The notes: generated from the letters alone by a model not told the origin. A stretch of DNA of 64,000 nucleotides from an uncultured Actinomycetota bacterium (GCA_963826515.1 CAWGXI010000005.1:193610-257609); one strand, 5' to 3'. Counted from the first letter of the stretch, positions 7,563-49,382 are shown. Translations and numbers: made by a program.

Positions 7563-7872
7563 CGCTGCTACCTCCCTACTCGTGCGGAGCGGTGGCCAGG
7601 CGAGGCGCTTCCCCTCGCCGCGCCTGGCCACCGCGCGGCTGCCCCGGGGGTATTGAGGCCGCCGCGCGGCTCCGCTGACTCTCATTCGAACACAAGTTCG
7701 ATGAGATGTCCAGCCGATAGCCGGACACGTGTTCGAAGTTACGCGGGAGGTGTGACATTTTCTGGTCCTCCCGGCGGCCTGCGCGTGGCCCGGCCATGCC
7801 TGTGCGCGCCGTGGCACGCGCGCTTGCGGCCTGGCGGCGCCCCCATTGCGATCTATTCCGAGATCATTTGAT

Positions 7873-7923
7873 CGTGGATGTACCGTCGCTGACGGTATGC
7901 GACCCGCGATGGCACATCCACGG
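7873..7923. repeat. degenerate copy of the 28-bp-arm palindrome found at 37431-37492
   Basis: cgtggatgtaccgtcgctgac-ggtatgc-gacccgcgatggcacatccacgg. The right arm matches about 30 of 34 nt of the 37.4-kb element. Confidence 0.7.
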
Positions 7924-8114
7924 TCACCACTGCAGGCACACGACGGCATCAAGATCGACTGTGGCTCCATAACATGTGCGGCGCCTAACTGCCACACCCA
8001 TCTGCCATCGCCGCGCCGGCCTCGGGCGCAAAACCGTGCCGGTCGTGCGCCGCCCGCGACCCCGGGCACCGGGTCGTCACAAACGCGACGTGAACGGCCA
8101 TCGAATCTGATGTC

Positions 8115-15577: not shown

Positions 15578-15700
15578 CCACACAGTGCTGCCGCCACACA
15601 GTGCTGCCGCCACACAGTGCTGCCGCCACACAGTGCTGCCGCCACACAGTGCTGCCGCCACACAGTGCTGCCGCCACACAGTGCTGCCGCCACACAGTGC
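15578..15700. repeat. perfect 16-bp tandem repeat, about 7.7 copies (intergenic)
   Basis: ccacacagtgctgccg repeated. The period is not a multiple of 3. Confidence 0.9.
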
Positions 15701-17449: not shown

Positions 17450-17637
17450 TCGGCCTAAGTTAGAGCAACCGCTTTCTGCGACCCCAACGCGGAGCCTTCT
17501 GCACCATGATCCGCTATCGCAGGAATGGCCTGGCGGCGCCGCAGAGTCAGCGCTCGATCGCGGCTGGTCACTGCCTGGGTGGCTTCTGCACTTTGGCAGG
17601 GCGAAGCAGATGCGACTGTCCGTAGACTTCATCGCAA

Positions 17638-24754: not shown

Positions 24755-24976
24755 CTTGATTCCTCTCGTCGCGCCGGATCGCCGGACACGGTCCCGCGGC
24801 CAACACTAGGGCATAGCATCGTGGTTCCTTCGCCGGCAAGGGGGTCCAGCTGGATCGTGGCAGGCGCCTGCTTATCCGGGAATGAGTGTGTAGCGGTGTC
24901 CTGCACGCGACGACGACAACGCCGCGAGCGGCATGGGCGCCGTTAGCGGCGGAGACGACCCCGATGCGACACACTG

Positions 24977-26452
24977 GTGCCCATGAGCGTCCTTGCCATC
25001 GATGCCGGCACCACCGGAGTCACCGCTCTCGTGGTCTCCGCCGAAGGAAAGATCCGCGGCCGCGGTTACGCGGAGTTTCGCCAGCACTATCCAGAGCCGG
25101 GCTGGGTCGAGCATCTGCCAGAGGGGATCTGGCAGGCGACGCTCTCCGCAGGCAGGCAAGCGCTGGCCGGCGGCGCGACCGTGCAGGCGGTCGGCATCAC
25201 CAACCAGCGCGAAACGCTGGTGGTCTGGGACCGTCGCACGCTGGCCGCCCCGCGCCGGGCGATCGTCTGGCAGGACCGCAGAACGGCTGCGCTGTGTGCC
25301 CGCCTGCGCGAGGCCGGGCACGAGCCGAGGGTGACAGAACTGACGGGATTGCGGCTCGACCCGTACTTCACGGCGACGAAACTTGCCTGGATCGCGGCGA
25401 ACGACGAGGCCACCTGGACTGCTATCACCGAAGGAACCGCGGTAGCCGGTACCGTCGACTCCTATCTCATCGCGCGGCTGACCGCCGGGCGCCGGCACGT
25501 TACCGACGCCTCCAACGCGTCGAGGACAATGCTGTACGACATCAGGACCGGGCAGTGGTCAGCCGAGCTTTGCGACCTTTTCGGCGTGCCGATGGGTGCG
25601 CTGCCCGAGGTGGTTCCGTCCTACGGGGTGGCGGGACAGGTCGATCCTGAGGAGTTCCTCGGACTCGACGTTCCGGTGGCAGGCATCGCAGGTGACCAGC
25701 AAGCGGCGCTGTTCGGCCAGGCATGCTTCGCGCCTGGCGACACCAAGTGCACGTACGGGACAGGCTCCTTCTTGCTCGTCAACACCGGCAAGTCAATCGT
25801 CACGCCCCGGTCGGGCCTGCTGTCCACGGTCGCCTGGCAGGAACCTGGCGGCGAGCTGACCTACGCGTTCGAAGGAGCGATCTTCGTCACCGGCGCGGCC
25901 GTCCAATGGCTGCGCGACGGTCTCGGCATCATCGACGTCGCACCGCAGACGGAGGCATTGGCTGGGACGGTCCCTGATAGCGGCGGTGTGGTATTCGTCC
26001 CGGCCCTGACCGGGCTCGGCGCGCCGGACTGGGACCCGGACGCGCGTGGCACGATCCTCGGCATCACCCGCGGAACCACGCGCGCGCACCTGGTCCGCGC
26101 CACGCTGGAGGCGATCGCGTTCGAAGTGCGGGACGTGTTCGACCTGATGACGGACGTGACCGGGCACGTGCCGGCGCGACTGAAGGCCGACGGCGGCGCG
26201 AGCGCCAACAACCTGCTCATGCAGATGCAGGCCGACCAGTTGCAGATCCCGGTGGACCGGCCGATGGTGGCGGAGACCACGGCAGTAGGCGCGGGCTTCC
26301 TCGCCGGCCTCGGCACGGGCATGTGGTCGTCGGCCGCTGAACTCGCAGGAACATGGCAGCTCGACCGCAGCTTTGAGGCTGGGCCCCGGGACCAGACCGG
26401 GCACGATCGCTGGCGGGATGCGGTGCGGCGGGCCAAGGGCTGGGCCAGATAA
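24977..26452 (+). CDS. glpK: glycerol kinase (FGGY family)
   Basis: LAIDAGTTGVT, GITNQRET.VVWD, YFTATKL.W, GDQQAALFGQ, full length. Confidence 0.88.
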   Translation: MPMSVLAIDAGTTGVTALVVSAEGKIRGRGYAEFRQHYPEPGWVEHLPEGIWQATLSAGRQALAGGATVQAVGITNQRETLVVWDRRTLAAPRRAIVWQDRRTAALCARLREAGHEPRVTELTGLRLDPYFTATKLAWIAANDEATWTAITEGTAVAGTVDSYLIARLTAGRRHVTDASNASRTMLYDIRTGQWSAELCDLFGVPMGALPEVVPSYGVAGQVDPEEFLGLDVPVAGIAGDQQAALFGQACFAPGDTKCTYGTGSFLLVNTGKSIVTPRSGLLSTVAWQEPGGELTYAFEGAIFVTGAAVQWLRDGLGIIDVAPQTEALAGTVPDSGGVVFVPALTGLGAPDWDPDARGTILGITRGTTRAHLVRATLEAIAFEVRDVFDLMTDVTGHVPARLKADGGASANNLLMQMQADQLQIPVDRPMVAETTAVGAGFLAGLGTGMWSSAAELAGTWQLDRSFEAGPRDQTGHDRWRDAVRRAKGWAR

Positions 26453-26804
26453 TCACCGCGCCCGATCCGCGGTAGCCAGGGCGGCCACCTTCGAGCAGGC
26501 TCGGATGTGAGCAGCTCGGCCCCGCAGGCCAGGGCTGGCTGCGCAGGCGGCAGCCGTTAAGACTGTATTGCCCCGGGGGGACGACCCCCCGGGATCCCCC
26601 GGCAGACTGTAGCGGCCCGCTCACTGCTGGATGAGAATCCGCCGATTCACGTATCAGGATCATGTTCGGTACCACCTCGCTTCGCGACGGCCGACCGGCC
26701 ACCCGCTTCTTTCGATGGCATGGCATCCGATCGGGCGAATCCCTCCGAATACGTGTTGACAGGACAGCTACCTGTCGACAGCACAGCGCCGGAGGGAGCA
26801 ATTC

Positions 26805-28046
26805 ATGGGGCGACATGTCGCCGTCATCGGCGGCGGCGTTGCGGGCCTGACGGCCGCGTATGTGCTGCAACGCTCGTGCGACGTGACGCTGTTCGAGGCC
26901 GATGACCGGGCGGGCGGTCACGCGCACACTCATGAGGTCGGCGGCCTTCGCGTGGATTCCGGCTTCATCGTGCACAACCCGCGGACCTATCCGCTGCTGA
27001 GCCGGCTCTTCGCTGAGCTGGGGGTGGCCACGCAGGACTGCCAGATGAGCATGTCGGTGCGGTGCGCCGGGTGCGGACTTGAATATGCGGGCGGGCGGGG
27101 GCCGCTCGGATTGCTCGGACGGCCGCACTCGGCGCTCCGCGCCAGTTACCTCCGGATGCTCACGGAGTTGCCTCGTTTCTACCGGGCCGCGCGGCAAGTG
27201 CTCGCCGACTCCGGCGACGACGTCACGCTCTCCCGCTTCCTCGCCGACGGCGGCTATTCGAGATACTTCATTGACCACTTCACAACGCCGCTTGTGGCCA
27301 CCGTGTGGTCGTGCGCGCCGGCCGAGGCAGGCCGCTATCCGGCGCGCTACCTGTTCGCTTTCCTCGCCAACCACGGCATGCTCGCGGTGCGTGGCTCGCC
27401 GCAGTGGCGGACGGTCACCGGTGGCAGCCGCGCCTACGTCGAGCGGGTCGAGAAGGAACTCACCGCGGTGCGGACCACCACGCCGGTCACGAGTCTGCGC
27501 CGGACGGAGGCCGGGGTGGAAATCCGCGACGACGCGGACACGACGTACTGTTTCGGCGCGGCCGTGGTCGCCACTCACGCGGACCAGGCACTTCGGCTGC
27601 TCGCGGCACCGACCGCGGCCGAACGCAGGGTGCTGGGCGCCTTCACTTACTCGCGCAACGAGACCATGCTGCACACCGACTCGTCCGCGCTTCCCCGCTC
27701 ACCAAGCGTCCGCGCATCGTGGAACTACCTGCAGCAGTCGTGTAACGAAGCCGGCGGCCAGGTGCGAGTGAGCTACGACATGACCAGGCTGCAGCAGCTG
27801 CCCGGACCGACCCGGTACGTGGTGACCCTGAACGGCGGAGAGTCGGTTGCCGCCGGCCGGGTGCTGGCCAGGATGGTCTACGAGCATCCGATCTTCACCC
27901 CCCAGGCGCTCGCGGCGCAGCGCAGGCTGCCAGAACTCAACGATGTTCGGATCGCCTACGCGGGCGCATATCACGGCTGGGGTTTCCACGAGGACGGCTG
28001 CCGGGCGGGGGCCGCCGCAGCGCGTGCGCTCGGGGGCACGTGGTGA
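26805..28046 (+). CDS. NAD(P)/FAD-dependent (amine-oxidase-like) oxidoreductase, first gene of the CFA-type operon
   Basis: MGRHVAVIGGGVAGLTAAYVL...EA..R.GGH dinucleotide fold. The stop overlaps the next gene start. Confidence 0.85.
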   Translation: MGRHVAVIGGGVAGLTAAYVLQRSCDVTLFEADDRAGGHAHTHEVGGLRVDSGFIVHNPRTYPLLSRLFAELGVATQDCQMSMSVRCAGCGLEYAGGRGPLGLLGRPHSALRASYLRMLTELPRFYRAARQVLADSGDDVTLSRFLADGGYSRYFIDHFTTPLVATVWSCAPAEAGRYPARYLFAFLANHGMLAVRGSPQWRTVTGGSRAYVERVEKELTAVRTTTPVTSLRRTEAGVEIRDDADTTYCFGAAVVATHADQALRLLAAPTAAERRVLGAFTYSRNETMLHTDSSALPRSPSVRASWNYLQQSCNEAGGQVRVSYDMTRLQQLPGPTRYVVTLNGGESVAAGRVLARMVYEHPIFTPQALAAQRRLPELNDVRIAYAGAYHGWGFHEDGCRAGAAAARALGGTW

Positions 28047-28960
28047 CCGCGCCCACCCTGTACGAATGCCGGGTCACGCACGTGCGAGCCGAGCCGATCA
28101 GAAACGCCTTCACCTATCCGATGCAGCTCTGGCTCACAGATCTCGACGATCTGCCGCGTGACCGGCCGCTCAGCGGAGCCTGCAGCCTCCGGCTGCGCGG
28201 CACCCGGCGGAGCGGCTTCCCGCGGCGCGGCTTCCCGCGGCGCGGCTTCCTGGCCAGGGATCATCTGGGCGATCCGGGCCTGAGCATCCGCGCCAACGTC
28301 GACCGCTTTCTTGCCAGCCGCGGCGTAAGCCTCGGCGGAGGCCACGTACTCATGCTCACCCAGCCGCGGGCTCTCGGTTACGTCTTCAACCCACTGACCG
28401 TCTACTGGTGCCACCGCGCCGACGGCGCACTCGCCGCCGTCATCGCCGAGGTGTGCAACACCCACGGTGAACGGCACTGCTACCTGCTACGCACCGACGA
28501 GCGGGGACGGGCACGGGTAGCCAAGGAGTTCTACGTCTCGCCGTTCTATCCGGTGGACGGAAGCTACCGGATGAGCCTGCCCACGCCGGGTGACCGGCTG
28601 AACCTGTCTGTGACGCTGCATCGCGCGGGCGAACGGCCGTTCGTTGCGACCGTGCGCGGTCATGCCGTCCCAGGCCAGCGTGTTCGCCCCTGGTCCACCG
28701 CCGCCGTCACGGCACGCATCCGACGCCAGGGCATCGGGCTTTATCTTCGCGGACTGCCTGTGTTGCCGCGGCCGGCGGCGAACGCACGGCCCGGCAGACG
28801 GTCCGGCAGACGGTCCGGCAGAAGGTCCGGCAGACAGCCTGAGACACGGCCTGAGACACGGCCGACGCACGGCCTGACGCACGGCCTGACGCACGGCCCG
28901 GCTCGCTGGCCGGCATACGGGAGGGAGTCTCTTGACTCAGATCACTGGTTACGGAACTAG
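28040..28960 (+). CDS. DUF1365 family protein
   Basis: LYECRVTHVRAEPIRNAFTYPMQLWLTDLDDLP...YVFNPLTVYWC...GERHCY is typical of DUF1365. The C-terminal tail is made of 12-bp repeats (GRRS x3, THGL x3), so the true end is uncertain. Confidence 0.8.
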   Translation: MVTAPTLYECRVTHVRAEPIRNAFTYPMQLWLTDLDDLPRDRPLSGACSLRLRGTRRSGFPRRGFPRRGFLARDHLGDPGLSIRANVDRFLASRGVSLGGGHVLMLTQPRALGYVFNPLTVYWCHRADGALAAVIAEVCNTHGERHCYLLRTDERGRARVAKEFYVSPFYPVDGSYRMSLPTPGDRLNLSVTLHRAGERPFVATVRGHAVPGQRVRPWSTAAVTARIRRQGIGLYLRGLPVLPRPAANARPGRRSGRRSGRRSGRQPETRPETRPTHGLTHGLTHGPARWPAYGRESLDSDHWLRN

Positions 28961-30320
28961 TCAGGGCGCCGGGCGGGTCGCCGGGCGGCGCACGGGTCAC
29001 GGCGCCGATGCCGGCGCGATCCGCAGCCGAGGCGATTGCGGCCCCAGCCGTGCACGGCACATCGACAGTGCCGGGCACGTCGACGCGGCACGCTGGCCCG
29101 ATGTCGCGGTTATTCCTGACAGCCGGGCGCGTGCCGCCGTGGCAAGCGCGCTGTTCCGCCGGGTTACCGCACGGCTGCCGGTTCGGGTGGTGACGGCGGA
29201 CGGGACGACAGGTGGTGGTGGCGAAGGCGCACCGGCGCTGCTGCTACATCGCCCTGGCGACTTCTACCGGCGCCTCGGCGCAGGTGGCCTGATCGGCTTG
29301 GGCGAGTCGTACATGGCGGGCGACTGGGACGCCGATGATCTGGCCGGCCTGCTGAGCGTCTTCGCGGCCCGGATGGCGACGCTCGTGCCCCGGCCCGCGC
29401 AGAAGCTGCGGCGGTGGTATGTGCCCCGGATGCCTGCCGCCGAGGACGGCACCCCCGATGGGGCGCGGCGGAACATCCAGCGCCACTACGACCTGTCCAA
29501 TGACCTGTTCGCGCTGTTCCTGGACGAGACCATGACCTACTCTGCGGCCGAGTTCGACGACCTCGGCGGATCCCTCGGCCCGCCGCTCGCCGAGGCCAAG
29601 GAGGACAGCTTGGCCCAGGCGCAGCGCCGGAAGATCGACCGGATCCTCGACCTCGCGGCGGTCGGCCCGGGCAGCCGGGTTCTCGAGATCGGAACCGGCT
29701 GGGGCGAACTGGCGATCAGGGCAGCCAGGCGTGGCGCACGCGTTGACTCGATCACGTTGTCGCAAGAACAGCGCGAGCTTGCGCAGGGCCGTGCCGCGCG
29801 GGCAGGTGTCGCGGGTCAGGTGGCGATCGACCTGCGAGACTACAGGGACGCCGCGGGGCGCTACGACGCAATCGTCAGCGTCGAGATGATCGAGGCGGTC
29901 GGGGACAGGTACTGGCCGGTGTTCTTCGCCACCCTCAATCGCCTTCTCGCGCCGCGCGGCCGCATCGGCCTGCAGGCGATCACCATGCCGCACGACAGAA
30001 TGCTCGCCACCCGCACCAGCTACACCTGGATTCACAAGTACATCTTTCCTGGTGGCGTCATCCCGTCGGCGATGGCCATCGAGCATGAGGCCGCCCGGGC
30101 GTCGCTGAGGGTGACCGCACGGCGCTCCCTCGGCCGGCACTACGCCAGGACGCTGCAACTATGGCGCGCGCGGTTCTGCCAGCACGCCAGCGACATCGAC
30201 AAGCTCGGCTTCGACGCGGTGTTCCGCCGCATGTGGACGTTCTATCTCGCCTACTCGGAGGCGGGTTTCCGGTCCGGATATCTCAACGTCCACCAGTTCG
30301 CGCTCGAGCACACGCCGTGA
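28932..30320 (+). CDS. cyclopropane-fatty-acyl-phospholipid synthase family SAM-dependent methyltransferase
   Basis: IQRHYDLSNDLFALFLDETMTYS, VLEIGTGWGELA, ...YIFPGG...; start uncertain (the track start is TTG). Confidence 0.88.
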   Translation: MTQITGYGTSQGAGRVAGRRTGHGADAGAIRSRGDCGPSRARHIDSAGHVDAARWPDVAVIPDSRARAAVASALFRRVTARLPVRVVTADGTTGGGGEGAPALLLHRPGDFYRRLGAGGLIGLGESYMAGDWDADDLAGLLSVFAARMATLVPRPAQKLRRWYVPRMPAAEDGTPDGARRNIQRHYDLSNDLFALFLDETMTYSAAEFDDLGGSLGPPLAEAKEDSLAQAQRRKIDRILDLAAVGPGSRVLEIGTGWGELAIRAARRGARVDSITLSQEQRELAQGRAARAGVAGQVAIDLRDYRDAAGRYDAIVSVEMIEAVGDRYWPVFFATLNRLLAPRGRIGLQAITMPHDRMLATRTSYTWIHKYIFPGGVIPSAMAIEHEAARASLRVTARRSLGRHYARTLQLWRARFCQHASDIDKLGFDAVFRRMWTFYLAYSEAGFRSGYLNVHQFALEHTP

Positions 30321-31772
30321 GCACCCCTGCGGCCCAGGCGCTCTGGCCGTTAATGGAGCAGGTTTTCCGCGGATCGCCCCCGGTACGGCTGCGCGCCTGG
30401 GACGGCAGCGAAGCGGGGGCCGGTCACGCCCCCACCGTCGTGCTGCGCTCGCGCCGCGCGCTCCGGTACCTGCTGTGGAGCCCGGCCGAGCTCGGCCTGG
30501 CACGCGCCTACGTTAGCGGCGACCCTCGACGTGGATGGTGACCTCGCCGAAGGGCTCAGGCGGTGCTGGCACGCGGTGCGCGAACGCGGCCTCAAGGGCG
30601 CCGGACTGCCGTGGCGGCAGCGGCTCGATGCCGGGAGGCTGGCGCTGCGGCTGGGCGTCGCAGGACCGCGGCCGCGCCCTCCGGCCGCAGAAGCCCGGCT
30701 GGCCGGGCGGTTGCACACGCGGGCCAGGGACCGCGCCGCGATCGCACACCACTACGACCTGTGCAACGACTTCTACGCACTCATCCTCGGCTCATCGATG
30801 GCGTACTCGTGCGCCTACTGGACAAGCGAGCCGCCCGGCTACGGCCTCGACGACGCCCAGCGCGACAAGCTAGCGCTGATCTGCCGCAAGCTCCGCCTCC
30901 AACCGGGCATGCGACTGCTCGACATCGGGTGCGGATGGGGATCTCTTGCTGTGCACGCCGCCCGCGCCCATGGCGCCCACGTAACCGCGGTGACGCTGTC
31001 CCGGCAGCAGGCCGCCCTCGCCCGGGCCAGGGCCGGCCAGCCGAAGACCGCGCAGGTGAAGGCCACGCCGGCCAAGACCGCAAAGATGACGGCCAACACG
31101 GCGCGGATGACGCCCGACACCGCGAAGATGATGGCCGACACCGCGAAGACGGCGGCCGACACCGCGAAGACGGCGGGTGCCGGCGCTGAAGATGGCAGCG
31201 TCGAGGTGCGCCTGCAGGACTACCGTGAGATGAGCGGCGGGCCCTACGACGCCATTGCCTCGATCGAGATGGGCGAGCATGTCGGGGCGGAAGGCTACGA
31301 GGCCTTCGCCCGCGGGATCCGCCGGCTGCTCCGCCCCGGCGGCCGGGTACTCATCCAGCAGATGTCACGGCGCACGGACACCGCGCCAGGCGGTGGCCCA
31401 TTCATCGAGACCTACATCGCGCCCGACATGCACATGCGGCCGCTGGGCGCCACGATCCAGTTGATCGAGGACGCCGGCCTTGAAGTGCGCGACGTGCAGA
31501 GCCTTCGAGAACACTACGTGCGCACCATCCGCGCCTGGCACGACGTCCTCGAACGTCAGTGGGATCAGGCGGTCGCGCTGATCGGCGAGGAGCAGGCGCG
31601 GGTGTGGCGGCTTTACCTGGCGGGCGGGGCGCTGGCCTTCGCGGAGGGGCGGATGGGCGTCGACCAGATCCTGGCAGTACGGCCACGAGCTGACGGCGAT
31701 CGCCGTTTGCCGGCGGTGCGCGGCAAGATGCCGGCCATGCCTGGTGACACTCCGCGGGTAAAGAGCCCGTGA
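30317..31772 (+). pseudogene. second CFA-synthase-family methyltransferase, frameshifted near 30518
   Basis: From GTG 30317 (GTGA overlap) the frame reads ...LRYLLWSPAELGLARAYVSGDPRRGW*. The next frame continues (L)DVDGDLAEGL...HHYDLCNDFYALILGSSMAYSCAYW...LLDIGCGWGSLA. An extra C in gaCCCtc explains the shift. Also carries a 50-aa (K/T)TA(K/D)-rich repeat insertion. Confidence 0.8.
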
Positions 31773-32557
31773 TGTTGGGCTGGTGCCTGGCCGCCAGCGC
31801 CGGGGTCGTTGCGGCCGTCATGGCGGCGACCTTCGCTATCGCCGTCGCGCAGAAGAAGCACCGGGTGATCGACGTCGCCTGGGGACTCGGTTTCGCCGCC
31901 GTCGCGCTTGCCGCGTACAGGATCTCCGCAGGCCACGGTGACGGCGGGCGGCGGTTGCTGGTCGCAACATTGACGGTGATCTGGGGCGTCCGCCTGGCGG
32001 CTCACATCGCCCGGCGCGCCTGGGGGCAAGGTGAAGATCCACGCTATGCGGAGTTGCTGAGCCGCGCCAAAGGCAGCCGCGATATCTACGCGCTACGGAC
32101 CGTGTATCTCACCCAGGGTGCCGTCATGTGGTTCGTCTCGCTGCCTGTACAGGTCGCGTGCTTCGAAAGGGCGCCACTTGGGCCGCTCGCCTGGCTAGGC
32201 ACTGCTGTGTGGCTGATTGGTTTCGGCTTCGAGGCGGCCGGTGACGCGCAACTCGCGCGTTTCAAGCATGACCCGGCGAACCGGAGCAAGGTTATGGATC
32301 GTGGGCTGTGGCACTATACCCGTCATCCAAATTACTTCGGTGATGCCTGCGTGTGGTGGGGCCTGTACCTCATTGCCTGCGACCATTGGACCGGTGCGCT
32401 CACTATCCTCTCGCCCGTGCTCATGACCTACTTCCTCGCTTTCGGCACAGGCAAGCCGCTGCTCGAGAAGGGAATGGCCAGCACGCGTCCTGGTTACGTC
32501 GAGTACGCGCGCCGTACCAGCGGGTTCTTCCCGCTCCCGCCAAGGAAGAGCACATAG
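31769..32557 (+). CDS. DUF1295 (steroid 5-alpha-reductase / ICMT-like) membrane protein
   Basis: Multi-TM protein with GLWHYTRHPNYFGDACVWWGLY. ATGA overlap with the upstream gene. Confidence 0.85.
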   Translation: MMLGWCLAASAGVVAAVMAATFAIAVAQKKHRVIDVAWGLGFAAVALAAYRISAGHGDGGRRLLVATLTVIWGVRLAAHIARRAWGQGEDPRYAELLSRAKGSRDIYALRTVYLTQGAVMWFVSLPVQVACFERAPLGPLAWLGTAVWLIGFGFEAAGDAQLARFKHDPANRSKVMDRGLWHYTRHPNYFGDACVWWGLYLIACDHWTGALTILSPVLMTYFLAFGTGKPLLEKGMASTRPGYVEYARRTSGFFPLPPRKST

Positions 32558-32655
32558 CCGACCGTCGTATTGACACGTCGAGCGCTGGCTACGCAGCCCC
32601 TGGCCGAACCGCACTGGGCTGCTGGCGGGCAGCTGGCCGGGCACAGCTCGCCCGC

Positions 32656-33612
32656 TCAGTCCAGATGGTGCCGCAGCCGCAGGTCCGCAGGGAAAGGCTC
32701 GAAGTAGGTCTGCTCGCCCAGGTACGTCATCGTCTCGCCGGCGGCATGATGGTGCAGCAGCGCGATCGGGACGCTGAGCGGAACCTCCCCGCGCCGGTAT
32801 CCCTCGAAAACGGCGCCGATGTCATCCCGCCTGACATCGTCAAGGGCCTCACTGATCTGGCTGAAGGCGTGCTGCAGGGCGTTGACGTGACGGCCGCGGG
32901 TGGCCCTGGCGGCCATTGCCTCGCTGAAGATGACGCTGTAGCCGGCCCGCAGCTTCTCCGGTGCCTGAGTACCGGCTGCTGCGACCAGCCGGCCTGCCTC
33001 GCGGTATCGGGCCGGGTCGTGTGCCAGCAGCTGCAGCTTGTGGCGGGCATGGAAAGCGATGAGGTCGGCCGACCGCCATGACTCAGCGAACAACAGCCGC
33101 AAGCGAGCGTGCGCGAAGATCCTCTCAATGAACTCCTCGCGCAGCCGCGCGTCGTTCAGCCGTCCGTCGTCTTCCACCGGAAGCAGCGGCGCAGCATCGG
33201 CGAACGCGGCGGCGAATAGGCCGCGCCCGCCACGATCGGTGACCTGATCATCGCGATACCGCTTGATGCCACGAAGGCCGCAGCTCGGGGACCCCGACTT
33301 GAACACGTATCCGTCGATGGCGGCAAGTTCGGCGCCGCGGCGGGCGGCAAGCGCTTGAACCGCCTCGGTGTGATCGGAGCTGCCGGCTCTGGACATGAGC
33401 CGGGTCCGACCACCCTCGGCAACCAGGCGCAGCGTCTCGCGCGGCGCGCCAAGTCCGATCTCGATCTCCGGGCAGACCGCTGCCCAGTCCACGTGGCGGC
33501 CAAGTTCGCGGGTGAGGAAGCGATCCCTGCTGTGTCCTCCGTTGAAGCGCACCGGGACGCCGAGCAGGCAACTGGACACACCCACCCTCGGTCTCACCGG
33601 CACCCCGTTCAC
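32656..33612 (-). CDS. DUF523 plus DUF1722 (YbgA-like) fusion protein
   Basis: VGVSSCLLGVPVRFNGGHS (DUF523) and C-terminal ...HARHKLQLLAHDPARYREAGRLVA... (DUF1722). The GTG start overlaps the sigma-factor stop (GTGA). Confidence 0.8.
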   Translation of the reverse strand: MNGVPVRPRVGVSSCLLGVPVRFNGGHSRDRFLTRELGRHVDWAAVCPEIEIGLGAPRETLRLVAEGGRTRLMSRAGSSDHTEAVQALAARRGAELAAIDGYVFKSGSPSCGLRGIKRYRDDQVTDRGGRGLFAAAFADAAPLLPVEDDGRLNDARLREEFIERIFAHARLRLLFAESWRSADLIAFHARHKLQLLAHDPARYREAGRLVAAAGTQAPEKLRAGYSVIFSEAMAARATRGRHVNALQHAFSQISEALDDVRRDDIGAVFEGYRRGEVPLSVPIALLHHHAAGETMTYLGEQTYFEPFPADLRLRHHLD

Positions 33613-34137
33613 GCAGCTAGCAACTCCCCCAGGCGCCGCAGCCCCCGCGCGGTCCTCGCCTTGATCGTACCCAGCGGGACGTCCAGGGACTCCGCGATCT
33701 CCCGTTGAGTGAGGTCACCGAAGTAGGCCAGCCTGATCGCCAGTTCCTGAGCCTGTGGCAGCACGGCGAGCGCCTGTCCCACATCGTGGGCCTGGTCAAT
33801 CCGGTCCGCCGCGGAGGGAACGGACGCGAGAGCCTGGCCCGAAAGCCTCGTCGAGCGGGAGGGTCACCCGGTGGCGGGCCCGAAGGTGGTCGATGGCCCG
33901 CATGCGGGCGATGCCAAGCACCCAGCCTTCGAGGCTGCGCGCAGGATCGTAGCGGTCACGGCACCGCCAAAGCTCGATGAGGACGATCTGGATCACGTCG
34001 TCGACGTCGTCAGGCGGTACGCGCCGGCGAAGGTACCGACGGAGCAGCGGGCAGAGCGCGGCAAAACACTCGGCTAGATCCGTCTCGTCACCGTGCGCAA
34101 GTTTCGCGCCGAGAGATCCATGTTCTGCGCCGTCCAT
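33609..34137 (-). pseudogene. ECF (group 4) sigma-70 factor, frameshifted between regions 2 and 4
   Basis: ORF 33796-34137 holds region 2 (DVDDVIQIVLIELWRCRDRYDP...LEGWVLGIARMRAIDHLR). Region 4 (LAVLPQAQELAIRLAYFGDLTQREIAESLDVPLGTIKARTARGLRRLGELLAA*) is in the +1 frame and ends at 33609. An extra G in ttcGGGcc (plus-strand ccc 33838-33840) explains the shift. Confidence 0.8.
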
Positions 34138-34489
34138 CGGGCCCCCTCGTGCCGGTGTGAGCGTTCGCGTCCCACACCGGAATAAAACACATCATGTCAC
34201 AACATGTATCGTCTCTACCTGCTACTTCTTAGAGGAAATCTACTCGAAAGTTATTCATTAGTGCAAGCCGCCCAGGACGGGATCTAGTTGTGACTTGCCA
34301 CACCGGCGGGTTGCGGACCGTGCCGGTTACCGGCAGCAAGGACCGCCTACCCGCCGGACGGCCATCCCGGTGCCCCGCTCGGTGCTGCGATCCCGCGGTG
34401 GCCGGCCACACCGCGAAGCGGCCCGGACCGGCCGCGAAGCGGCCCGGCAACCCGGCCGCGCGCGATTGCCGCCCGGCAACCGGCCGCAT

Positions 34490-34640
34490 GGGACGGGGCG
34501 CGGCAACCGGCCGCGCGGGGTGCGGGCGGGCAACCGGCCACGCCGGGTACGGGCGGGCAACCGGCCACGCCGGGTACGGGCGGGCAACCGGCCACGCCGG
34601 GTGCGGGCGGGCAACCGGCCACGCGGGTGCGGGCGGCGTG
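34490..34640. repeat. 27-bp tandem repeat, about 4-5 copies (intergenic)
   Basis: gggcgggcaaccggccacgccgggtac repeated, with degenerate flanking copies. Confidence 0.85.
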
Positions 34641-34689
34641 ACAGGTCACAGCTCAGCGCGCAGGGCGGTCAGCCGCGCTGTGCGCGCCG

Positions 34690-34752
34690 AAGCAGAGAGA
34701 AAGAGAAGCAGAGAAAGAGAAGCAGAGAAAAGAGAAGCAGAGAAAGAAGGGC
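34690..34752. repeat. A/G-rich 14-bp repeat tract (polypurine/polypyrimidine)
   Basis: aagcagagagaaagagaagcagagaaagagaagcagagaaaagagaagcagagaaagaaggg. Purine runs of 13-16 nt are separated by single C. Extreme composition outlier for this window. Confidence 0.9.
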
Positions 34753-34753
34753 C

Positions 34754-35770
34754 TCAGCCTGCGCCGAGAGCCATCATGACGGCGTTGACCGCGTCGGAAA
34801 GGGTCTGCACGGTCTCGATCCCCGACGGCATCTGGTGGCGGTTCCAGCCCGGGCCGCCGACGATCACCTGGATCGCCGGACGCAGGGCTGGCAGATCGGC
34901 CAATGGCTCCGCTGCACCGGTCGCTGTGGTCTGCGACCACAAGAAAACGGCCACAGGACCGAGCCGGCGGACTGCGTCCGCAAGTGCGTGGTAGGGGACC
35001 CTGGCGCCGAGCACGCGAGTGGCGGCATGCCTTTTGGCAAGGGCCGCGGCGAGCGCGTACAGCGCCAAGGTGTGCTGTTCCTCCGGGGCGCAGGCGAGCA
35101 GTACCGGGCGCGCGTTGACTGCTTCGCCCGGCCGGGTGGCGACGGCGGAAAGCGTGGCAAGTGCGGACCAGGTGAGCAGATGTTCGATCTCGACGCAGCG
35201 CCCACTTGACGAATAACGTTCGCCGAGCCCGGTAAGGACAGGGACCAGCATGTTGTCCCAGGTCCAGACGACACCCCGGCGGCGAAGTGCGGCCCGGATT
35301 AGTTCCCGGGTGGTTGGCTCGTCCATGGCCATCGCCGCGCGGGACAGCGCGCGCGCCTCCGCCGTCGCACCGGGCACCGCCAGCCGGTTCCCGCCGGAAC
35401 CGGCCGCCTGACGACGCCTCCTTGGCAGGGGCACGCCTATGCCGGGCACGCCTGTGCCAGTACGCGGCCGCCCAGTCACGGGTGACCCAGGCACCGGTGA
35501 CCCAGGCACCGGTGACCCAGGCACCGGTGCGCCCAGGCCGGCCTCGAGGGCCGTGCGCGCCGCCTCCGCTGGCGGGAGACCATTCAGGATCAGGCGATGC
35601 ATTATTTCGAGCCGGGCTACGTCAACGGCGTCGTAGCGACGGTGGTGTCCCTCGCTACGCCGGCTAGGCCCGATTCCGTAGCGGCGGTCCCAGGTACGCA
35701 GCGTGGACGTGGCCACGCCGAGGCGCCGCGCGACCGCGCCCACACCGAACCCGGGGCTGGCGCTCTCCAT
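34754..35770 (-). CDS. MerR-family regulator with C-terminal cobalamin-binding-type domain (LitR/CarH-like)
   Basis: N-terminal MerR HTH (VGAVARRLGVATSTLRTWDRRYG...HRRY). C-terminal W...IEH helix-bundle motif, PEEQHTLAL (E-x-H type B12 ligand motif) and VIVGGPG. A GSPVP x4 linker repeat. Start at internal ATG 35770 (track start 35824). Confidence 0.75.
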   Translation of the reverse strand: MESASPGFGVGAVARRLGVATSTLRTWDRRYGIGPSRRSEGHHRRYDAVDVARLEIMHRLILNGLPPAEAARTALEAGLGAPVPGSPVPGSPVPGSPVTGRPRTGTGVPGIGVPLPRRRRQAAGSGGNRLAVPGATAEARALSRAAMAMDEPTTRELIRAALRRRGVVWTWDNMLVPVLTGLGERYSSSGRCVEIEHLLTWSALATLSAVATRPGEAVNARPVLLACAPEEQHTLALYALAAALAKRHAATRVLGARVPYHALADAVRRLGPVAVFLWSQTTATGAAEPLADLPALRPAIQVIVGGPGWNRHQMPSGIETVQTLSDAVNAVMMALGAG

Positions 35771-35957
35771 GACCTCCCCAGTGAAGAACCTGCTCTCACA
35801 ATTCTTGCGGAAATGATCAAGCAAACGGTTGCATCCCGCGACCGACGCTACAAATCAGCTGATTCACTCGCACGCAGGTCTGCCGAATCGACGCCCCGGC
35901 CGAGACGGGCACCGCCACGATCAAGAACACCGCTGACCACGCCGACGTGCAGCATGG

Positions 35958-37244
35958 CTACCAGCGGAACCCGGCCACCATGACGTGGCCGCGAGCGCCC
36001 GCCAACGGGTTGAAATACGAGAGGACTAACTCGGTCCGCGTGCTGAGCTCCGGATGCCCGATTATCGCGCGGCAGAAGTTCGCGTAGCCACCACCCACCC
36101 GGCACGGGACGCGCCCGGATCTGATCCGTCGCCAGGGGCCGGCCGGTGCCCGCGACTCGTACACGGTGAAGCCGCCACCGATGTCTGTCTGCTCGACGAG
36201 GATGAACTGGCGCCCCGCAGCAGAGAAGTCGGCCACGCTCACGGCGGACGGTCTCGCTCCGGCGATGATCGATGTCGCCGCAGCGGCGTCAGGCGTCCAC
36301 GGGCCCAATGAGCCGCCGATCCACCATTGGTAGCGAAACGGATCGGCCCAATCGAGCGGGCTGGCGGCCACCCGCGCTTCGAACACCGTCCCCGTTGCGC
36401 ATCTTCCGAATGCCAGATCCGTGCACGTGGGGCCGAACAGGTACAGATAAGGACCGGAGAAGACCGGCGAGCCAAGCAGCTTGGCTGACGCCGCGATGCT
36501 GAGATCAACACTGGCGAACACCGTTACCTCGTTGCTCAGCGTGCCCGTGGCGGGATCGTATTCGACCAGGCCGAAGCCCTCGGGCAGGAAGCCGCCTGCT
36601 CCACTCAGCACGCAGTAGTTGTTGAAAGCGATGAGCAGGTCATTCGACGACGGCATCCGGGTGACCCCGCTGACCCACGACGTGGCGTAACCGCCGCCGT
36701 AGCCACAAGGCAGGCCGGTCAATGTGACGAGCCCGGTGGGTGCGGGCAGGAATGGTGCAGGTCCGCGACTGCCGGGCACTGCGCCGTTCGCGGTGCCCGG
36801 CGTCGTGCCCGGCGCGCCAAGCTCGCTCAGCCGACCTGGCACGCGTACCGCCGCGCCCGGCCGCGCTACGGTTGGACTCACCGCGGCCGTCGAACCACTG
36901 ATGAACTGCTTGAGCGCCCAGCTGAGGTGGCCGCTCGCGTCCGGCTTGCGTACGTACACGGGCGTATCGCAGAACAACCAGAGGCTGCGCCGTGGGCTGG
37001 CCGGCAGCGGCTGGCTATAACCACAATCGCGGGCCAGGCTGGCGTCACCCGAGCGCTCAAACCGGGACATGACCTGGACAGGCGCCAGCGTGCCGGGCTT
37101 GCTCCGCGGGCCGCAGGACGTCGGCACCGCGAGCAGCACCGCGACGAGTATGACCAGGACCAGACGGCGGCCGGGACTGCCGCCCGGACGGCAGCGACGC
37201 CAGCACAGAAGTGGGCGGCCGGTCCCGGGGTGAGGCACCGTCAT
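35958..37244 (-). CDS. putative lipoprotein / secreted hypothetical protein
   Basis: 428 aa. Signal peptide with lipobox (LLAVPTSC). High GC3. ATGA coupling to the upstream small HTH gene. No family recognised with confidence. Confidence 0.65.
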   Translation of the reverse strand: MTVPHPGTGRPLLCWRRCRPGGSPGRRLVLVILVAVLLAVPTSCGPRSKPGTLAPVQVMSRFERSGDASLARDCGYSQPLPASPRRSLWLFCDTPVYVRKPDASGHLSWALKQFISGSTAAVSPTVARPGAAVRVPGRLSELGAPGTTPGTANGAVPGSRGPAPFLPAPTGLVTLTGLPCGYGGGYATSWVSGVTRMPSSNDLLIAFNNYCVLSGAGGFLPEGFGLVEYDPATGTLSNEVTVFASVDLSIAASAKLLGSPVFSGPYLYLFGPTCTDLAFGRCATGTVFEARVAASPLDWADPFRYQWWIGGSLGPWTPDAAAATSIIAGARPSAVSVADFSAAGRQFILVEQTDIGGGFTVYESRAPAGPWRRIRSGRVPCRVGGGYANFCRAIIGHPELSTRTELVLSYFNPLAGARGHVMVAGFRW

Positions 37245-37450
37245 GGGCAGCCAGTGTCGTCCAGGCCCGGCTCGATCGCGTACCCGACCAGGTCTACGCG
37301 ATTGTGCAGTTGCAGCTTGCCGCGCGTGTTCTGCACGTGGTTCTGGACGGTCAGGTGCGGCAACGCAAGGCGCTGTGCCATCTGCTTATGGGACACGCTT
37401 TTCGCGACCATCCGCACGCGCACCTGTCCCGGTGACCCGGGATGTGCCAT
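37241..37450 (-). CDS. small stand-alone LuxR/GerE-type HTH protein (69 aa)
   Basis: ...SPGQVRVRMVAKSVSHKQMAQRLALPHLTVQNHVQNTRGKLQLHNRVDLVGYAIEPGL matches the GerE/LuxR C-terminal HTH. Its stop overlaps the ATG of the next gene. The ATG at 37450 lies inside the palindrome (the track ORF extends to GTG 37516). Confidence 0.5.
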   Translation of the reverse strand: MAHPGSPGQVRVRMVAKSVSHKQMAQRLALPHLTVQNHVQNTRGKLQLHNRVDLVGYAIEPGLDDTGCP

Positions 37451-37492
37451 CGCGGGTCGTATATGACCCGCGATGGCACATCCCGGGTCACC
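37431..37492. repeat. perfect inverted repeat, 28-bp arms and 6-nt spacer
   Basis: ggtgacccgggatgtgccatcgcgggtc gtatat gacccgcgatggcacatcccgggtcacc. The arms are exact reverse complements. Confidence 0.95.
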
Positions 37493-37632
37493 AGCCACGT
37501 CACTACTCCTGGTCACGGGCGGCCGCCTCGCTCCTGGCCGTCTCGCCGCCGGCCGGCCCGGCCCCGGCTATGTTGCCCTCAGCGCCGGGCGTGACCGCGT
37601 CGCTCGCCGCGCCGGGACTACTGTCACTGGGC

Positions 37633-38355
37633 TCACTCCCCGCCGGGTCCGCTCACGGCCGCCTGGCGCTTACGTGCAGCCTGAAGCTCCGCCTTGGCCT
37701 GCTGAGCGTACTTGTCCACGTACTCCTGCCCGGATAGCTCCATGAGCGCGTACATGATCTCGTCGGTGACCGCCCGGAGGACCATGCGGTCCGATTCCAT
37801 GTCGTAGTAGCGGGAGAAGTCGAGAGCCTCGCCAAACCGTACCCCCGGGCGGATCCGCAGGTTGGGCCAGACCCGACCCGGAGGCTGCATCTCGAAGGTG
37901 CCCACCATCGCGGCGGGGACCACGGGGGCACGGCCTTCGAGTGCGAGCCTGGCGACGCCGGTCTTGCCCCGGTAGAGCCTGCCGTCAGGCGAGCGCGTGC
38001 CCTCAGGGTAGATGCCGAGCACCTTTCCCTCCGCGAGCACCCGCAGTCCCGTGCGCAGTGAACGCTCACTCGCCAGCCCGCCACCGCGGTCAACCGGGAT
38101 CTGGCCGATGCCACGGAAGAACGCCTTGCTCACGATGCCCTTGAGCCCAGAACCTGTGAAGTACTCAGCTTTGGCGAGGAAGATCACCTTCCGCGGCAGC
38201 GGCAGCGGCCCGAAGAAGTGGTCGGAAAAGGACAGGTGGTTGCTCGCCACGATCGCCGGGCCCTCGCGAGGGAGGTTCTCTGTTCCCTCTGCCCACGGTC
38301 GGAAGACGATCCTGAGGATCGGCCTCAAGATCACTTTCACCAGCCCGTAGAACAA
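37633..38355 (-). CDS. plsC: 1-acyl-sn-glycerol-3-phosphate acyltransferase
   Basis: NHLSFSDH (HX4D) and YPEGTRS motifs. Confidence 0.88.
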   Translation of the reverse strand: MFYGLVKVILRPILRIVFRPWAEGTENLPREGPAIVASNHLSFSDHFFGPLPLPRKVIFLAKAEYFTGSGLKGIVSKAFFRGIGQIPVDRGGGLASERSLRTGLRVLAEGKVLGIYPEGTRSPDGRLYRGKTGVARLALEGRAPVVPAAMVGTFEMQPPGRVWPNLRIRPGVRFGEALDFSRYYDMESDRMVLRAVTDEIMYALMELSGQEYVDKYAQQAKAELQAARKRQAAVSGPGGE

Positions 38356-48060: not shown

Positions 48061-48357
48061 GCACCCTCGCCACCGCACGGGCACCCTCGCCACCGCACGG
48101 GCACCCTCGTCACCGGACGGGCACCCTCGTCACCGGACGGGCACCCTCGTCACCGGACGGGCACCCTCGTCACCGGACGGGCACCCTCGTCACCGCACGG
48201 GCACCCTCGCCACCGCACGGGCACCCTCGCCACCGCACGGGCACCCTCGCCACCGCACGGGCACCCTCGCCACCGCACGGGCACCCTCGCCACCGCACGG
48301 GCACCCTCGCCACCGCACGGGCACCCTCGCCACCGCACGGGCACCCTCGCCACCGCA
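48061..48357. repeat. 20-bp tandem repeat, about 15 copies in two sequence variants (intergenic)
   Basis: gcaccctcgccaccgcacgg, with a block of gcaccctcgtcaccggacgg variants. A 36-bp duplication lies just upstream (47965-48060). Confidence 0.95.
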
Positions 48358-48549: not shown

Positions 48550-49174
48550 GGCCACTCCCTCCAGCTCGTGATCCCGCGTGCCGGAACCACGGGTAGACGT
48601 TAGAAGGAGGCACCGACATTTCCCTGTGCGGCCATGTCAGCCGGGCCACCCTGGCACGTGCTTGCATCAGTGTGAACTAACAGCACCAGAGGGGTGCCTG
48701 TGGCCCTTGCCCGACGATGCCGTCTGGCACACGATGGCCCATTGTGTGTCAAATTTGGCGCCCAATGGGCCATCGTGTGTCACCGCGAGCCCTCGCCCGA
48801 GCGGAAATAACGGCCCATCGGTGTGGCTCTGGCGGAGGGAGTTGAAATGCCTGCTGCGGACGCGGCTTGGTGGCAGCCGTGTCGCGGATAAACGTGCCGC
48901 GGTCGGCGGATTCGTCGTTATGGATGGAACTCGCCCACCATTGGGCACGGGCATTGCGGCGGCCGCATATTGGCTGGCAACGCTCAGGCATCATGGGCGT
49001 CGCTGTTACTTAGGAACAACATCGCGTCGATCAGCACAGGGACAACGCCATGGCGGCCACGCCAGGGGCGCCATCCCAATGCCGTCATGCCGAGGGCCAC
49101 GGGAGGTAACTCCAGACGAGCCGCACCCACCGGCCAGCGTGTGCTGCGGGAAGCGAGATCACGGCACCCAGCAC

Positions 49175-49345
49175 CGGCGCCACACCGGGCGAGCGGCACC
49201 CAGCCGACGCCACCCCCGGCGCCACACCGGGCAAGCGGCACCCAGCCGACGCCACCCCCGGCGCCACACCGGGCGAGCGGCACCCAGCCGACGCCACCCC
49301 CGGCGCCACACCGGGCAAGCGGCACCCAGCCGACGCCCACCCCCG
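49175..49345. repeat. 42-bp tandem repeat x4
   Basis: gccacaccgggcRagcggcacccagccgacgccacccccggc repeated. Alternate copies differ by one base. Confidence 0.9.
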
Positions 49346-49382
49346 GCGTCGCCGGTACAGGCACGAATCTAACGGCGATGCG

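What the first reader, a model, noticed from the sequence alone, without database searches (positions are those of the whole stretch)
37241..37516. Perfect 28-bp-arm palindrome burying the start codon of a stand-alone GerE/LuxR HTH gene
The 62-nt element (arms exactly complementary, 6-nt loop) contains the only ATG (37450) that yields a complete four-helix GerE-type HTH. In the mRNA this AUG sits in the 3' arm of a 28-bp helix with no exposed SD. The small gene is ATGA-coupled to a 428-aa lipoprotein gene. The element could be a DNA operator for the HTH dimer (autoregulation), an RNA translational lock or thermosensor, or the terminator of the upstream plsC gene. It might also be a mobile palindromic insertion that truncated a longer LuxR regulator. 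A degenerate copy exists at 7873-7923.
Basis: partly seen in the sequence, partly recalled or inferred. Interest (0 to 1): 0.65.

Follow-up and report, generated by a model that had tools for sequence, protein, structure and literature searches.

The report
Palindromic repeat inside a dead regulator gene
The perfect 62-base palindrome is real, but it is one copy of a scattered family of hairpin-forming repeats lodged at the edge of a decaying regulator-gene fragment, and it is missing or partly deleted in near-identical strains, so it is not a switch built for that small gene.

Summary
The palindrome at 37431-37492 (28-nt perfect arms, 6-nt loop) is confirmed and far beyond chance. The gene reading does not hold.

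- **The ORF is a relic.** It keeps only the last 54 residues of a NarL/LuxR-type response regulator. A distant relative has plsC, a histidine kinase, a response regulator and pfkA at this position. Here the kinase, the receiver domain and the start of the HTH domain are gone. Pfam GerE covers positions 12-57 of 57. dN/dS is about 0.8, against 0.2 for plsC.
- **The palindrome is polymorphic.** Close strains carry the same relic with 55 nt of the palindrome missing or with a 70-nt deletion that removes most of it. The ORF is then 91, 56 or 69 aa.
- **The palindrome is a dispersed repeat.** Copies lie in unrelated flanks in this window (7869-7928), in related soil metagenome contigs and in JGI contigs. 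Each arm is itself a 25-nt imperfect palindrome, giving a 25-6-25 layout. A second family with the same skeleton lies at 48726-48781. The 6-nt spacer occurs in both orientations in identical flanks, and arm changes are compensated.

Best reading: a REPIN/REP-like non-autonomous repeat. Burial of the AUG is incidental. How it moves is inferred, not shown.

The parts
37431..37492 (.). 62-nt palindrome: two inverted 28-nt arms around the 6-nt spacer GTATAT.
   Evidence: DNA hairpin -41.6 kcal/mol, z = -14.
37434..37458 (.). Unit 1: a 25-nt imperfect palindrome, GACCCGgGATG-tgc-CATCgCGGGTC.
   Evidence: a single arm folds at -8.4 kcal/mol.
37465..37489 (.). Unit 2: the exact reverse complement of unit 1.
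37256..37417 (-). Relic of the C-terminal HTH domain of a NarL/LuxR-type response regulator (residues 175-228 of the reconstructed relative, 72% identity).
   Evidence: tblastn E = 2e-25, no receiver-domain remnant; GerE positions 12-57 of 57; dN/dS 0.78.
37241..37516 (-). The 91-aa ORF as listed. Residues 9-29 are simply the translated palindrome. The N-terminus differs in every allele (91, 69 or 56 aa).
37441..37495 (.). 55 nt absent in the L003 and run X5 allele. This is either an empty site or a collapse of the palindrome.
   Evidence: alignment A1; joint 37440 to 37496.
37452..37521 (.). 70 nt absent in the L002 and runs X1, X2, X4 allele. It removes the loop, one arm, 7 nt of the other arm and 29 nt of flank, and keeps 21 nt of that other arm.
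   Evidence: (joint 37451 to 37522 in three runs).
37633..38355 (-). plsC-type acyltransferase gene. Its stop codon lies 140 nt upstream of the palindrome on the minus strand.
35958..37244 (-). 428-aa ORF with an N-terminal signal-like hydrophobic stretch and a weak DUF4185 match. Its ATG overlaps the relic's TGA.
7869..7928 (.). Degenerate copy of the same family. The right unit is intact and the left unit is decayed. It lies in non-coding DNA upstream of a Ser/Thr kinase gene.
   Evidence: and (71.7 bits; this copy was part of the model's training set).
48726..48781 (.). Second family with the same 25-6-25 layout and the shared skeleton GACnnnnRATG-n3-CATYnnnnGTC.
   Evidence: (at least 5 further copies in runs X1-X4).

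Best explanation
The palindrome is one copy of a dispersed, non-coding, hairpin-forming repeat family. Its anatomy matches a REPIN, which is a doublet of REP units. Two 25-nt units, each an imperfect palindrome, lie in inverted orientation around a 6-nt spacer.

This copy sits at the 5' edge of a decaying fragment of a NarL-type response-regulator gene. By synteny that gene is the counterpart of Streptomyces macR, downstream of plsC. The kinase gene and the receiver domain have been lost.

The small 'GerE gene' is that fragment. Its apparent N-terminus is the translated palindrome, so burial of the AUG is a by-product of where the repeat lies.

**Shown**
- The family occurs in several unrelated flanks.
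- The locus is polymorphic: full palindrome, 55 nt missing, or 70 nt missing.
- The two arms change together.
- The spacer occurs in both orientations in identical flanks.
- The ORF is truncated and evolves almost neutrally.

**Inferred**
- The element spreads, and is lost, through single-strand hairpin or cruciform intermediates, as REPINs do with a RAYT-type transposase.
- Being a long perfect palindrome, it provokes deletions.
- It probably took part in the deletion that removed the kinase and receiver genes.

Any effect on the plsC-to-lipoprotein transcript, such as a pause, a processing barrier or a block to translation of the relic, would be incidental.
For: **Family and spread**
- Exact-arm scans found full palindromes in two other contexts (L006/L008/L010/L011, and L016/L020) and a single-arm copy in L004/L014/L015 at the same position as L016.
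- Laying the 74-nt element on runs X1-X4 gives several further contigs in other flanks with full-length matches of 58-64 nt, at the organism's depth.
- A second family with the same skeleton lies at 48726-48781. It also has at least 5 further copies in those runs.
- A model built from these copies finds exactly the three it was trained on in the 64-kb window and nothing else above 15.4 bits.

**Anatomy**
- Each arm is itself an imperfect palindrome.
- Every doublet found has the same unit order.
- Spacer length is fixed at 6 nt while its sequence varies.

**Concerted arms**
- Four pairs are changed on both sides, three of them in this copy.

**Flip-flop spacer**
- Identical flanks carry spacer CTCTAT in L006, L010 and L011, and ATAGAG in L008 and L021. 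L021 is a k141 assembly.

**Polymorphism at this locus**
- Three alleles are seen.

**Relic status of the ORF**
- GerE match covers only positions 12-57 of 57.
- No receiver-domain remnant is detectable.
- Relatives show plsC, histidine kinase, response regulator and pfkA in that order.
- dN/dS is 0.78 for the relic and 0.20 for plsC.

**Match to REPIN features** as described in PMC3337134.
Against: - No RAYT or other transposase is present in the window, and the genome is not available. The mobilising enzyme is therefore hypothetical.
- Copy number looks modest: several contigs per family in low-coverage assemblies, against tens to hundreds for classical REPINs.
- The 6-nt spacer is much shorter than in described REPINs.
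- The direction of the 55-nt difference is unresolved. The 'empty' allele keeps GGAGACCCGG. That could be the element's own terminus, which would mean a collapse. It could also be the regulator's ancestral R-E-T codons, which would mean a true empty site.
- No clean insertion signature was found.
- No transcript data exist.
- The dN/dS estimate rests on only 10 substitutions.
Confidence: 0.65

Rival explanations
1. It is a classical MITE, a cut-down insertion sequence reduced to its two terminal inverted repeats and moved in trans by a DDE transposase.
For: - It has perfect terminal inverted repeats and is small.
- Copies are dispersed.
- In L006 the imperfect inverted symmetry extends to about 148 nt.
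- An IS66-like transposase ORF lies about 1.2 kb from the copy in L010 (family assigned by my reading of the translation, not by a profile search).
Against: - No clean target-site duplication appears at any copy (reading).
- The most conserved part is the inner end of each arm next to the spacer, not the outer termini.
- Each arm is an internal palindrome, which DDE terminal repeats need not be.
- No parent IS with these ends was found in the window, in plasmids or in phages.
Confidence: 0.12
2. It is a family of protein-binding sites. Two 25-bp dyad operators lie 31 bp apart centre to centre, on the same face of the helix. They would be bound by a regulator or architectural protein, possibly the HTH fragment itself (autoregulation).
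For: - The half-site GACCCGsGATG occurs four times in dyad arrangement, with about three helical turns between unit centres.
- One copy lies in non-coding DNA upstream of a Ser/Thr kinase gene, possibly a promoter region.
- The copy upstream of a radical-SAM gene is kept at the same position in two lineages.
Against: - Identity of roughly 90% over about 56 nt between unrelated loci, plus homology extending beyond the core in L006 and L020, is more than operators normally share.
- The two 28-nt arms are complementary at the asymmetric positions too. A dimer site does not require that.
- The element is absent or partly deleted in near-identical strains.
- The local HTH is a truncated fragment evolving near neutrally, and the other copies have no GerE gene nearby.
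Confidence: 0.12
3. It is an RNA device. The 28-bp helix hides the AUG at 37450 and any SD, acting as a translational lock or thermosensor for the small HTH protein and, by ATGA coupling, for the lipoprotein gene.
For: - The geometry is as described. The AUG is in the 3' arm, and the predicted mRNA fold keeps the helix (z = -7.8).
- The ATGA overlap is real.
Against: - From general knowledge, RNA thermometers use weak, mismatched stems. A perfect 28-bp G+C-rich helix would not melt at physiological temperature.
- The helix is missing or broken in close relatives, whose ORFs start elsewhere.
- The same helix occurs in non-coding contexts.
- The protein it would control is a fragment.
Confidence: 0.03
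4. It is the transcription terminator or 3'-end stabiliser of plsC, a hairpin without a U-tract as is common in high-G+C actinomycetes.
For: - It lies 140 nt downstream of the plsC stop on the same strand and forms a very stable stem.
- REP-type hairpins are known to take on such roles secondarily (PMC3337134).
Against: - No U-tract follows the stem.
- The allele lacking 55 nt of the palindrome shows it is dispensable for plsC.
- Other copies lie upstream of genes.
- This would be an incidental effect. It does not explain the family.
Confidence: 0.08

Closest known systems
REPINs (REP doublets forming hairpins) of Pseudomonas and enterobacteria, mobilised by RAYT transposases (PMC3337134, PMC3116915)
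   Same: - Two short imperfect palindromes lie in inverted orientation around a spacer and form a long hairpin.
- They are dispersed and extragenic, with several sequence families in one genome.
- Spacer sequence is variable.
- Half-decayed 'singlets' occur beside well-kept doublets.
- Population variants exist with the centre removed.
   Different: - The spacer is only 6 nt, against tens of nt in described REPINs.
- Apparent copy number is low.
- The host is an uncultured high-G+C actinomycete.
- No RAYT has been seen, and the conserved GTAG-type 5' motif was not identified.
- Membership is therefore not established. The claim is only that it works like one.
Bacterial MITEs (reviews PMC3184786, PMC10969869)
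   Same: Small, non-coding, with inverted-repeat ends, multi-copy, intergenic or intragenic, and able to add peptide segments to ORFs.
   Different: No target-site duplication and no matching parent IS were found. Conservation is highest next to the central spacer rather than at the outer ends.
MacR (SCO2120), the NarL-type response regulator of the MacRS two-component system of Streptomyces coelicolor (PMC9739842)
   Same: - A relative (L001) has plsC, a histidine kinase with DUF5931, a NarL-type response regulator and pfkA in that order.
- From memory, that is the SCO2122-SCO2119 arrangement.
- The window's ORF aligns to the last 54 residues of that regulator (72% identity).
   Different: Here the kinase, the receiver domain and the first part of the HTH domain are missing. 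pfkA lies about 12 kb away, at 23714-24805. The ORF is a relic, not a member in working order.
GerE and other stand-alone LuxR-type HTH proteins
   Same: Small size, with an HTH of the GerE Pfam family (32 bits, cut-off 23.5).
   Different: The domain is N-terminally truncated (model positions 1-11 absent). The start codon is not conserved and dN/dS is about 0.8.

Membership tests
REP / REPIN | The unit is a short (20-40 nt) imperfect palindrome. | tested here: met
   The 25-nt unit GACCCGsGATG-n3-CATCsCGGGTC pairs at 10 of 11 positions. A single arm folds at -8.4 kcal/mol.
REP / REPIN | Two units lie in inverted orientation around a spacer and form a long hairpin. | tested here: met
   The layout is 25-6-25. 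The arms are 28/28 complementary, with -41.6 kcal/mol as DNA. The same unit order is seen in every doublet found.
REP / REPIN | Many dispersed, mostly extragenic copies in one genome. | tested here: inconclusive
   There are three superfamily copies in 64 kb. Several further contexts per family appear in runs X1-X4. The whole genome is not available, so copy number is unknown.
REP / REPIN | A cognate single-copy RAYT (Y1 HUH transposase) gene flanked by the units. | not testable with these tools
   The Pfam scans of 45 window ORFs gave no transposase or Y1_Tnp match. The rest of the genome is not in hand.
REP / REPIN | Doublets are better conserved than singlets, and excisions are seen in populations. 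| tested here: inconclusive
   W2 and L004 each have one intact and one decayed unit. That is biased by searching with an exact arm. Alleles missing 55 and 70 nt exist, but their direction and mechanism are unresolved.
MITE | Terminal inverted repeats flanked by a target-site duplication. | tested here: not met
   The inverted repeats are there. No clean direct repeat flanks any copy. At this copy there is only an imperfect 11-12-nt repeat that is itself palindromic.
MITE | A parent insertion sequence with the same ends. | tested here: inconclusive
   None was found in the window, in plasmids or in phages. Genome-wide this could not be tested.
Intrinsic terminator | A G+C-rich stem-loop followed by a U-tract just after a gene. 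| tested here: not met
   The stem is there, 140 nt after the plsC stop. The tail is GGGACAGGUG, and no site was called here.
Stand-alone GerE/LuxR HTH regulator | A complete GerE domain (four helices). | tested here: not met
   The Pfam match covers positions 12-57 of 57. There is an 11-residue gap against full domains. The AF2 model has pLDDT 55 and only two helices.
Stand-alone GerE/LuxR HTH regulator | Conserved start and length, and purifying selection among close relatives. | tested here: not met
   The ORF is 91, 69 or 56 aa in three alleles. dN/dS is 0.78 against L003, and 3 non-synonymous to 0 synonymous changes against L002. plsC gives 0.20 (counts are small).
NarL-family response regulator (MacR-like) | A receiver domain followed by a GerE-type output domain. 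| tested here: not met
   tblastn finds only regulator residues 175-228 and nothing of the receiver domain.
RNA thermometer / translational lock | A start region sequestered in a meltable helix that is conserved with the gene. | tested here: not met
   Sequestration is geometrically true. However, the helix is 28 perfect pairs, and it is absent or broken in relatives.

The most novel reading that the evidence does not exclude
The 25-6-25 nested palindromes, of which at least two sequence families share the skeleton GACnnnnRATG-n3-CATYnnnnGTC, could be the substrates of an undescribed hairpin- or cruciform-specific DNA-processing system in actinomycetes. This would be a REPIN-RAYT analogue. It would keep the arms perfectly paired, flip the 6-nt spacer, and drive local gene loss, such as the deletion of the macRS-like two-component system whose edge this copy marks.
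Probability: 0.2. Interest if true: 0.55.

Novelty: new member of a known kind. Interest (0 to 1): 0.3.

Why it matters
- **Annotation.** The 'small LuxR regulator with a buried start codon' should be recorded as a pseudogene fragment plus a repeat element, not as a regulatory device.
- **Palindrome instability.** The locus shows a long perfect palindrome caught in three allelic states in nearly identical wild strains. That is a natural example of palindrome instability.
- **Possible new repeat family.** The repeat family has no Rfam match and no sequence match in the literature library, so it appears undescribed. If a cognate enzyme exists in these soil actinomycetes, it would extend REPIN-type biology to a phylum where I know of no described case. 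That last point rests on my own knowledge; the literature searches here found none.

Tried and rejected
**Searches that gave nothing useful**
- Rfam gave only sub-threshold microRNA-hairpin look-alikes.
- BLAST of the element against plasmids and phages gave no match.
- A scan of IMG/VR with a 16-mer gave only chance hits inside coding DNA, and none was palindromic.
- A literature search for the arm sequence found nothing relevant.
- Searches for RAYT or REP in Actinobacteria found nothing.
- No RNA runs hold this locus.
- A protein search with the three reading frames of the palindrome, meant to harvest spurious ORFs over other copies, gave only 3 hits. One of them, P0007, is a new context.
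- The representative-genome scan found only one related copy and did not contain the source genome.

**Leads rejected after a test**
- Remnants of the receiver domain or the kinase between plsC and the palindrome: none found.
- The shared 'MTRSS' start of the window ORF and of P0003-P0005 is chance. The Ser codons differ (AGT against TCN). In the relatives that peptide is an out-of-frame read of the regulator linker in an assembly with many frameshifts.
- Homology between this copy's flanks and the extended arms of L006 is spurious. The left flank is regulator-derived coding sequence.

**Resemblances considered by eye and dropped** (recalled from memory, not tested)
- BldD box, NrdR boxes and dif/Xer sites.
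- The TraB recognition repeat GACCCGGA of Streptomyces plasmids. The half-site resembles it, but those repeats are direct arrays on plasmids.
- A junction of abutted IS ends.

Full report
**1. The observation**

- The sequence at 37431-37492 is GGTGACCCGGGATGTGCCATCGCGGGTC-GTATAT-GACCCGCGATGGCACATCCCGGGTCACC. It has 28 perfectly complementary bases per arm and a 6-nt loop.
- Shuffled sequence never gives a comparable match. As single-stranded DNA it folds at -41.6 kcal/mol, z = -14.
- On the minus strand it lies inside ORF 37241-37516 (91 aa, GTG start). The ATG at 37450 is in the 3' arm. The ORF's TGA overlaps the ATG of a 428-aa ORF.
- A degenerate copy is at 7869-7928.
- So the physical description is right.

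**2. The 'gene' is a fragment**

- Pfam GerE matches residues 35-80 only, which is model positions 12-57 of 57.
- The best non-identical homologues (P0003-P0005) contain the full PQLTDRETEVLRLVAKG start of the domain. The window ORF lacks 11 of those residues and has palindrome-encoded sequence there instead.
- P0005 sits in locus L001, where the gene order is acyltransferase (plsC), histidine kinase (DUF5931 plus HATPase), response regulator and pfkA. In that frameshift-ridden assembly the 100-aa 'protein' is only the C-terminal piece of a normal NarL-type response regulator.
- From memory, this is the arrangement around macRS (SCO2120/2121) in Streptomyces coelicolor. The gene names are confirmed in PMC9739842.
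- tblastn of the reconstructed regulator on the window finds residues 175-228 only (37256-37417, 72% identity). It finds no trace of the receiver domain or the kinase.
- The window itself is conserved actinomycete core chromosome: carAB, pyrB, bldD, Ser/Thr kinases, aroG, thiI, plsC, glk, fadD, trpD, ctaE, qcrCAB and ctaD. pfkA now lies 12 kb away at 23714-24805, and there is no transposase.
- Between the window and two close relatives, the 56 relic codons collected 5 non-synonymous and 2 synonymous changes (dN/dS 0.78) and 3 non-synonymous and 0 synonymous changes. plsC next door gives 0.20. The numbers are small but consistent with little or no constraint on the protein sequence.
- An AF2 model is poor (pLDDT 55) and shows only the two HTH helices.

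**3. The palindrome is polymorphic at this locus**

- L003 is an ENA metagenome contig, 93-97% identical to the window. It has the same plsC-relic junction but lacks 55 nt, reading ...GGCTGGAGACCCGGACAGG.... A Logan contig of run X5, made with a different assembler, shows the same joint, 37440 to 37496.
- L002 and contigs of runs X1, X2 and X4 are 99.5% identical to the window. They lack 70 nt (37452-37521). They keep 21 nt of one arm, including this copy's private CCCGGG variant.
- The ORF is therefore 91, 56 or 69 aa, with three different N-termini.
- The 70-nt deletion is clearly derived from the full form.
- The direction of the 55-nt difference is open. The remaining GGAGACCCGG may be the element's own terminus, since the family consensus terminus is GAGACC. 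It may instead be the regulator's ancestral GGGAGACC (R-E-T) codons.
- None of the runs I laid shows the full palindrome at this locus.

**4. The palindrome belongs to a dispersed family**

- An exact 19-mer of the arm finds full palindromes in JGI and other metagenome contigs in two further contexts. One is L006/L008/L010/L011. The other is L016/L020.
- It also finds a copy with one decayed arm in L004/L014/L015. That copy sits at the same position as the L016 copy, between a sigma-factor gene and a radical-SAM gene.
- Laying the 74-nt element on runs X1-X4 shows several more contigs with full-length matches in other flanks, at about the organism's depth.
- There are no matches in plasmids, phages or viral contigs, and no Rfam family.

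**5. Anatomy of the element**

- Each arm is itself an imperfect palindrome, GACCCGsGATG-n3-CATCsCGGGTC. The element is therefore a 25-6-25 doublet of inverted units.
- A second palindrome at 48726-48781 has different letters but the same skeleton, GACnnnnRATG-n3-CATYnnnnGTC, and an A+T-rich 6-nt spacer. It too has at least 5 more copies in runs X1-X4.
- A covariance model built from both families finds only these three training copies in the window.
- Spacer length is constant while its sequence varies: GTATAT, CTCTAT, CTCAGA.
- In one and the same flanks the spacer occurs in both orientations. It reads CTCTAT in L006, L010 and L011 and ATAGAG in L008 and L021.
- Where this copy differs from the family (CCCGGG for CCGTGG, T for A near the end), both arms differ in the complementary way. 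Four pairs are changed on both sides in six sequences.
- No clean target-site duplication is seen at any copy.

**6. Interpretation**

- These features match what Bertels and Rainey describe for REPINs: inverted doublets of imperfectly palindromic REP units, variable spacers, several families per genome, decaying singlets, and central excisions in populations (PMC3337134).
- I therefore read the element as a REPIN/REP-like non-autonomous repeat.
- Membership is not established. No RAYT is in the window and the genome is unavailable. Copy number looks low and the spacer is unusually short.
- The element lies within about 6-14 nt of the point where regulator homology begins. In L016 and L020 the left flank changes exactly at the palindrome. 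Both facts suggest that these palindromes mark or promote rearrangements. That is inference.
- The operator and RNA-lock ideas fail on three counts: polymorphism, the unrelated contexts of other copies, and the relic status of the ORF.
- A terminator-like effect on plsC read-through is possible but incidental, since there is no U-tract.
- The relic may persist as an open frame only because its translation is coupled by ATGA to the downstream 428-aa gene. That is untested.

**7. Verdict**

The finding is a real and striking sequence feature with an ordinary explanation. It is a member of an apparently undescribed family of a known kind of repeat, sitting in a gene relic. Interest is modest.

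Noticed in passing
window 48726-48781: A second nested palindrome (25-6-25, spacer AAATTT) with the same skeleton as the one studied but different letters. It has at least 5 further copies in other flanks in runs X1-X4. One 1367-nt contig of X1 appears to carry a copy resembling the studied palindrome and a copy of this second type about 240 nt apart.
   Followed up: partly
window 3882-4025, 6649-6882, 15576-15700, 48061-48357, 49174-49348, 52794-52905 and others: The window is unusually rich in perfect or near-perfect short-period tandem repeats (periods 15-42 nt, up to about 15 copies at 98-100% identity), which by the ORF map look to lie mostly between genes. TRF returned 42 rows for 64 kb.
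   Followed up: no
L006/L010/L011 versus L008/L021 (e.g. L006 1196-1201): The 6-nt spacer of the same palindrome in the same flanks occurs in both orientations (CTCTAT and ATAGAG) in independent assemblies. This is a flip-flop polymorphism.
   Followed up: partly
L016 14322-14365 versus L020 131-174: The two contigs share the right flank (the 3' end of an ECF-type sigma factor gene) at 99.5% identity but have unrelated left flanks starting at the edge of the palindrome. This is either a rearrangement breakpoint or an assembly branch at the repeat.
   Followed up: no
window 17626-18270 and 18222-19871 (+): A Ser/Thr kinase domain that stops at Pfam position 182 of 263 is followed, in another frame and with an overlap, by an ORF with four PASTA domains. 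It looks like a frameshifted PknB-type kinase gene or a sequencing error.
   Followed up: no
window 23714-37244: In relative L001, pfkA directly follows the response regulator. Here pfkA (23714-24805) lies about 12 kb from the relic. The DNA between holds a FGGY kinase, an amine oxidase, two cyclopropane-fatty-acid-synthase-like genes, DUF1295, a 2-thiouracil desulfurase-like gene, a MerR/B12-binding (CarH/LitR-like) regulator and the 428-aa putative lipoprotein.
   Followed up: partly
window 37496-37510 (-): AGGAG, then 7 nt, then an in-frame GTG (37498) lies 4 nt upstream of the hairpin. It is a better-looking ribosome site than any in front of the ATG at 37450, yet it would also be blocked by the helix.
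   Followed up: no
L001 1462-4303: The plsC, kinase and regulator genes of this public contig are broken into several frames (a 565-aa fusion plus 125, 130 and 100-aa pieces). This is probably long-read indel error. It created the misleading '100-aa LuxR' database proteins P0003-P0005.
   Followed up: partly
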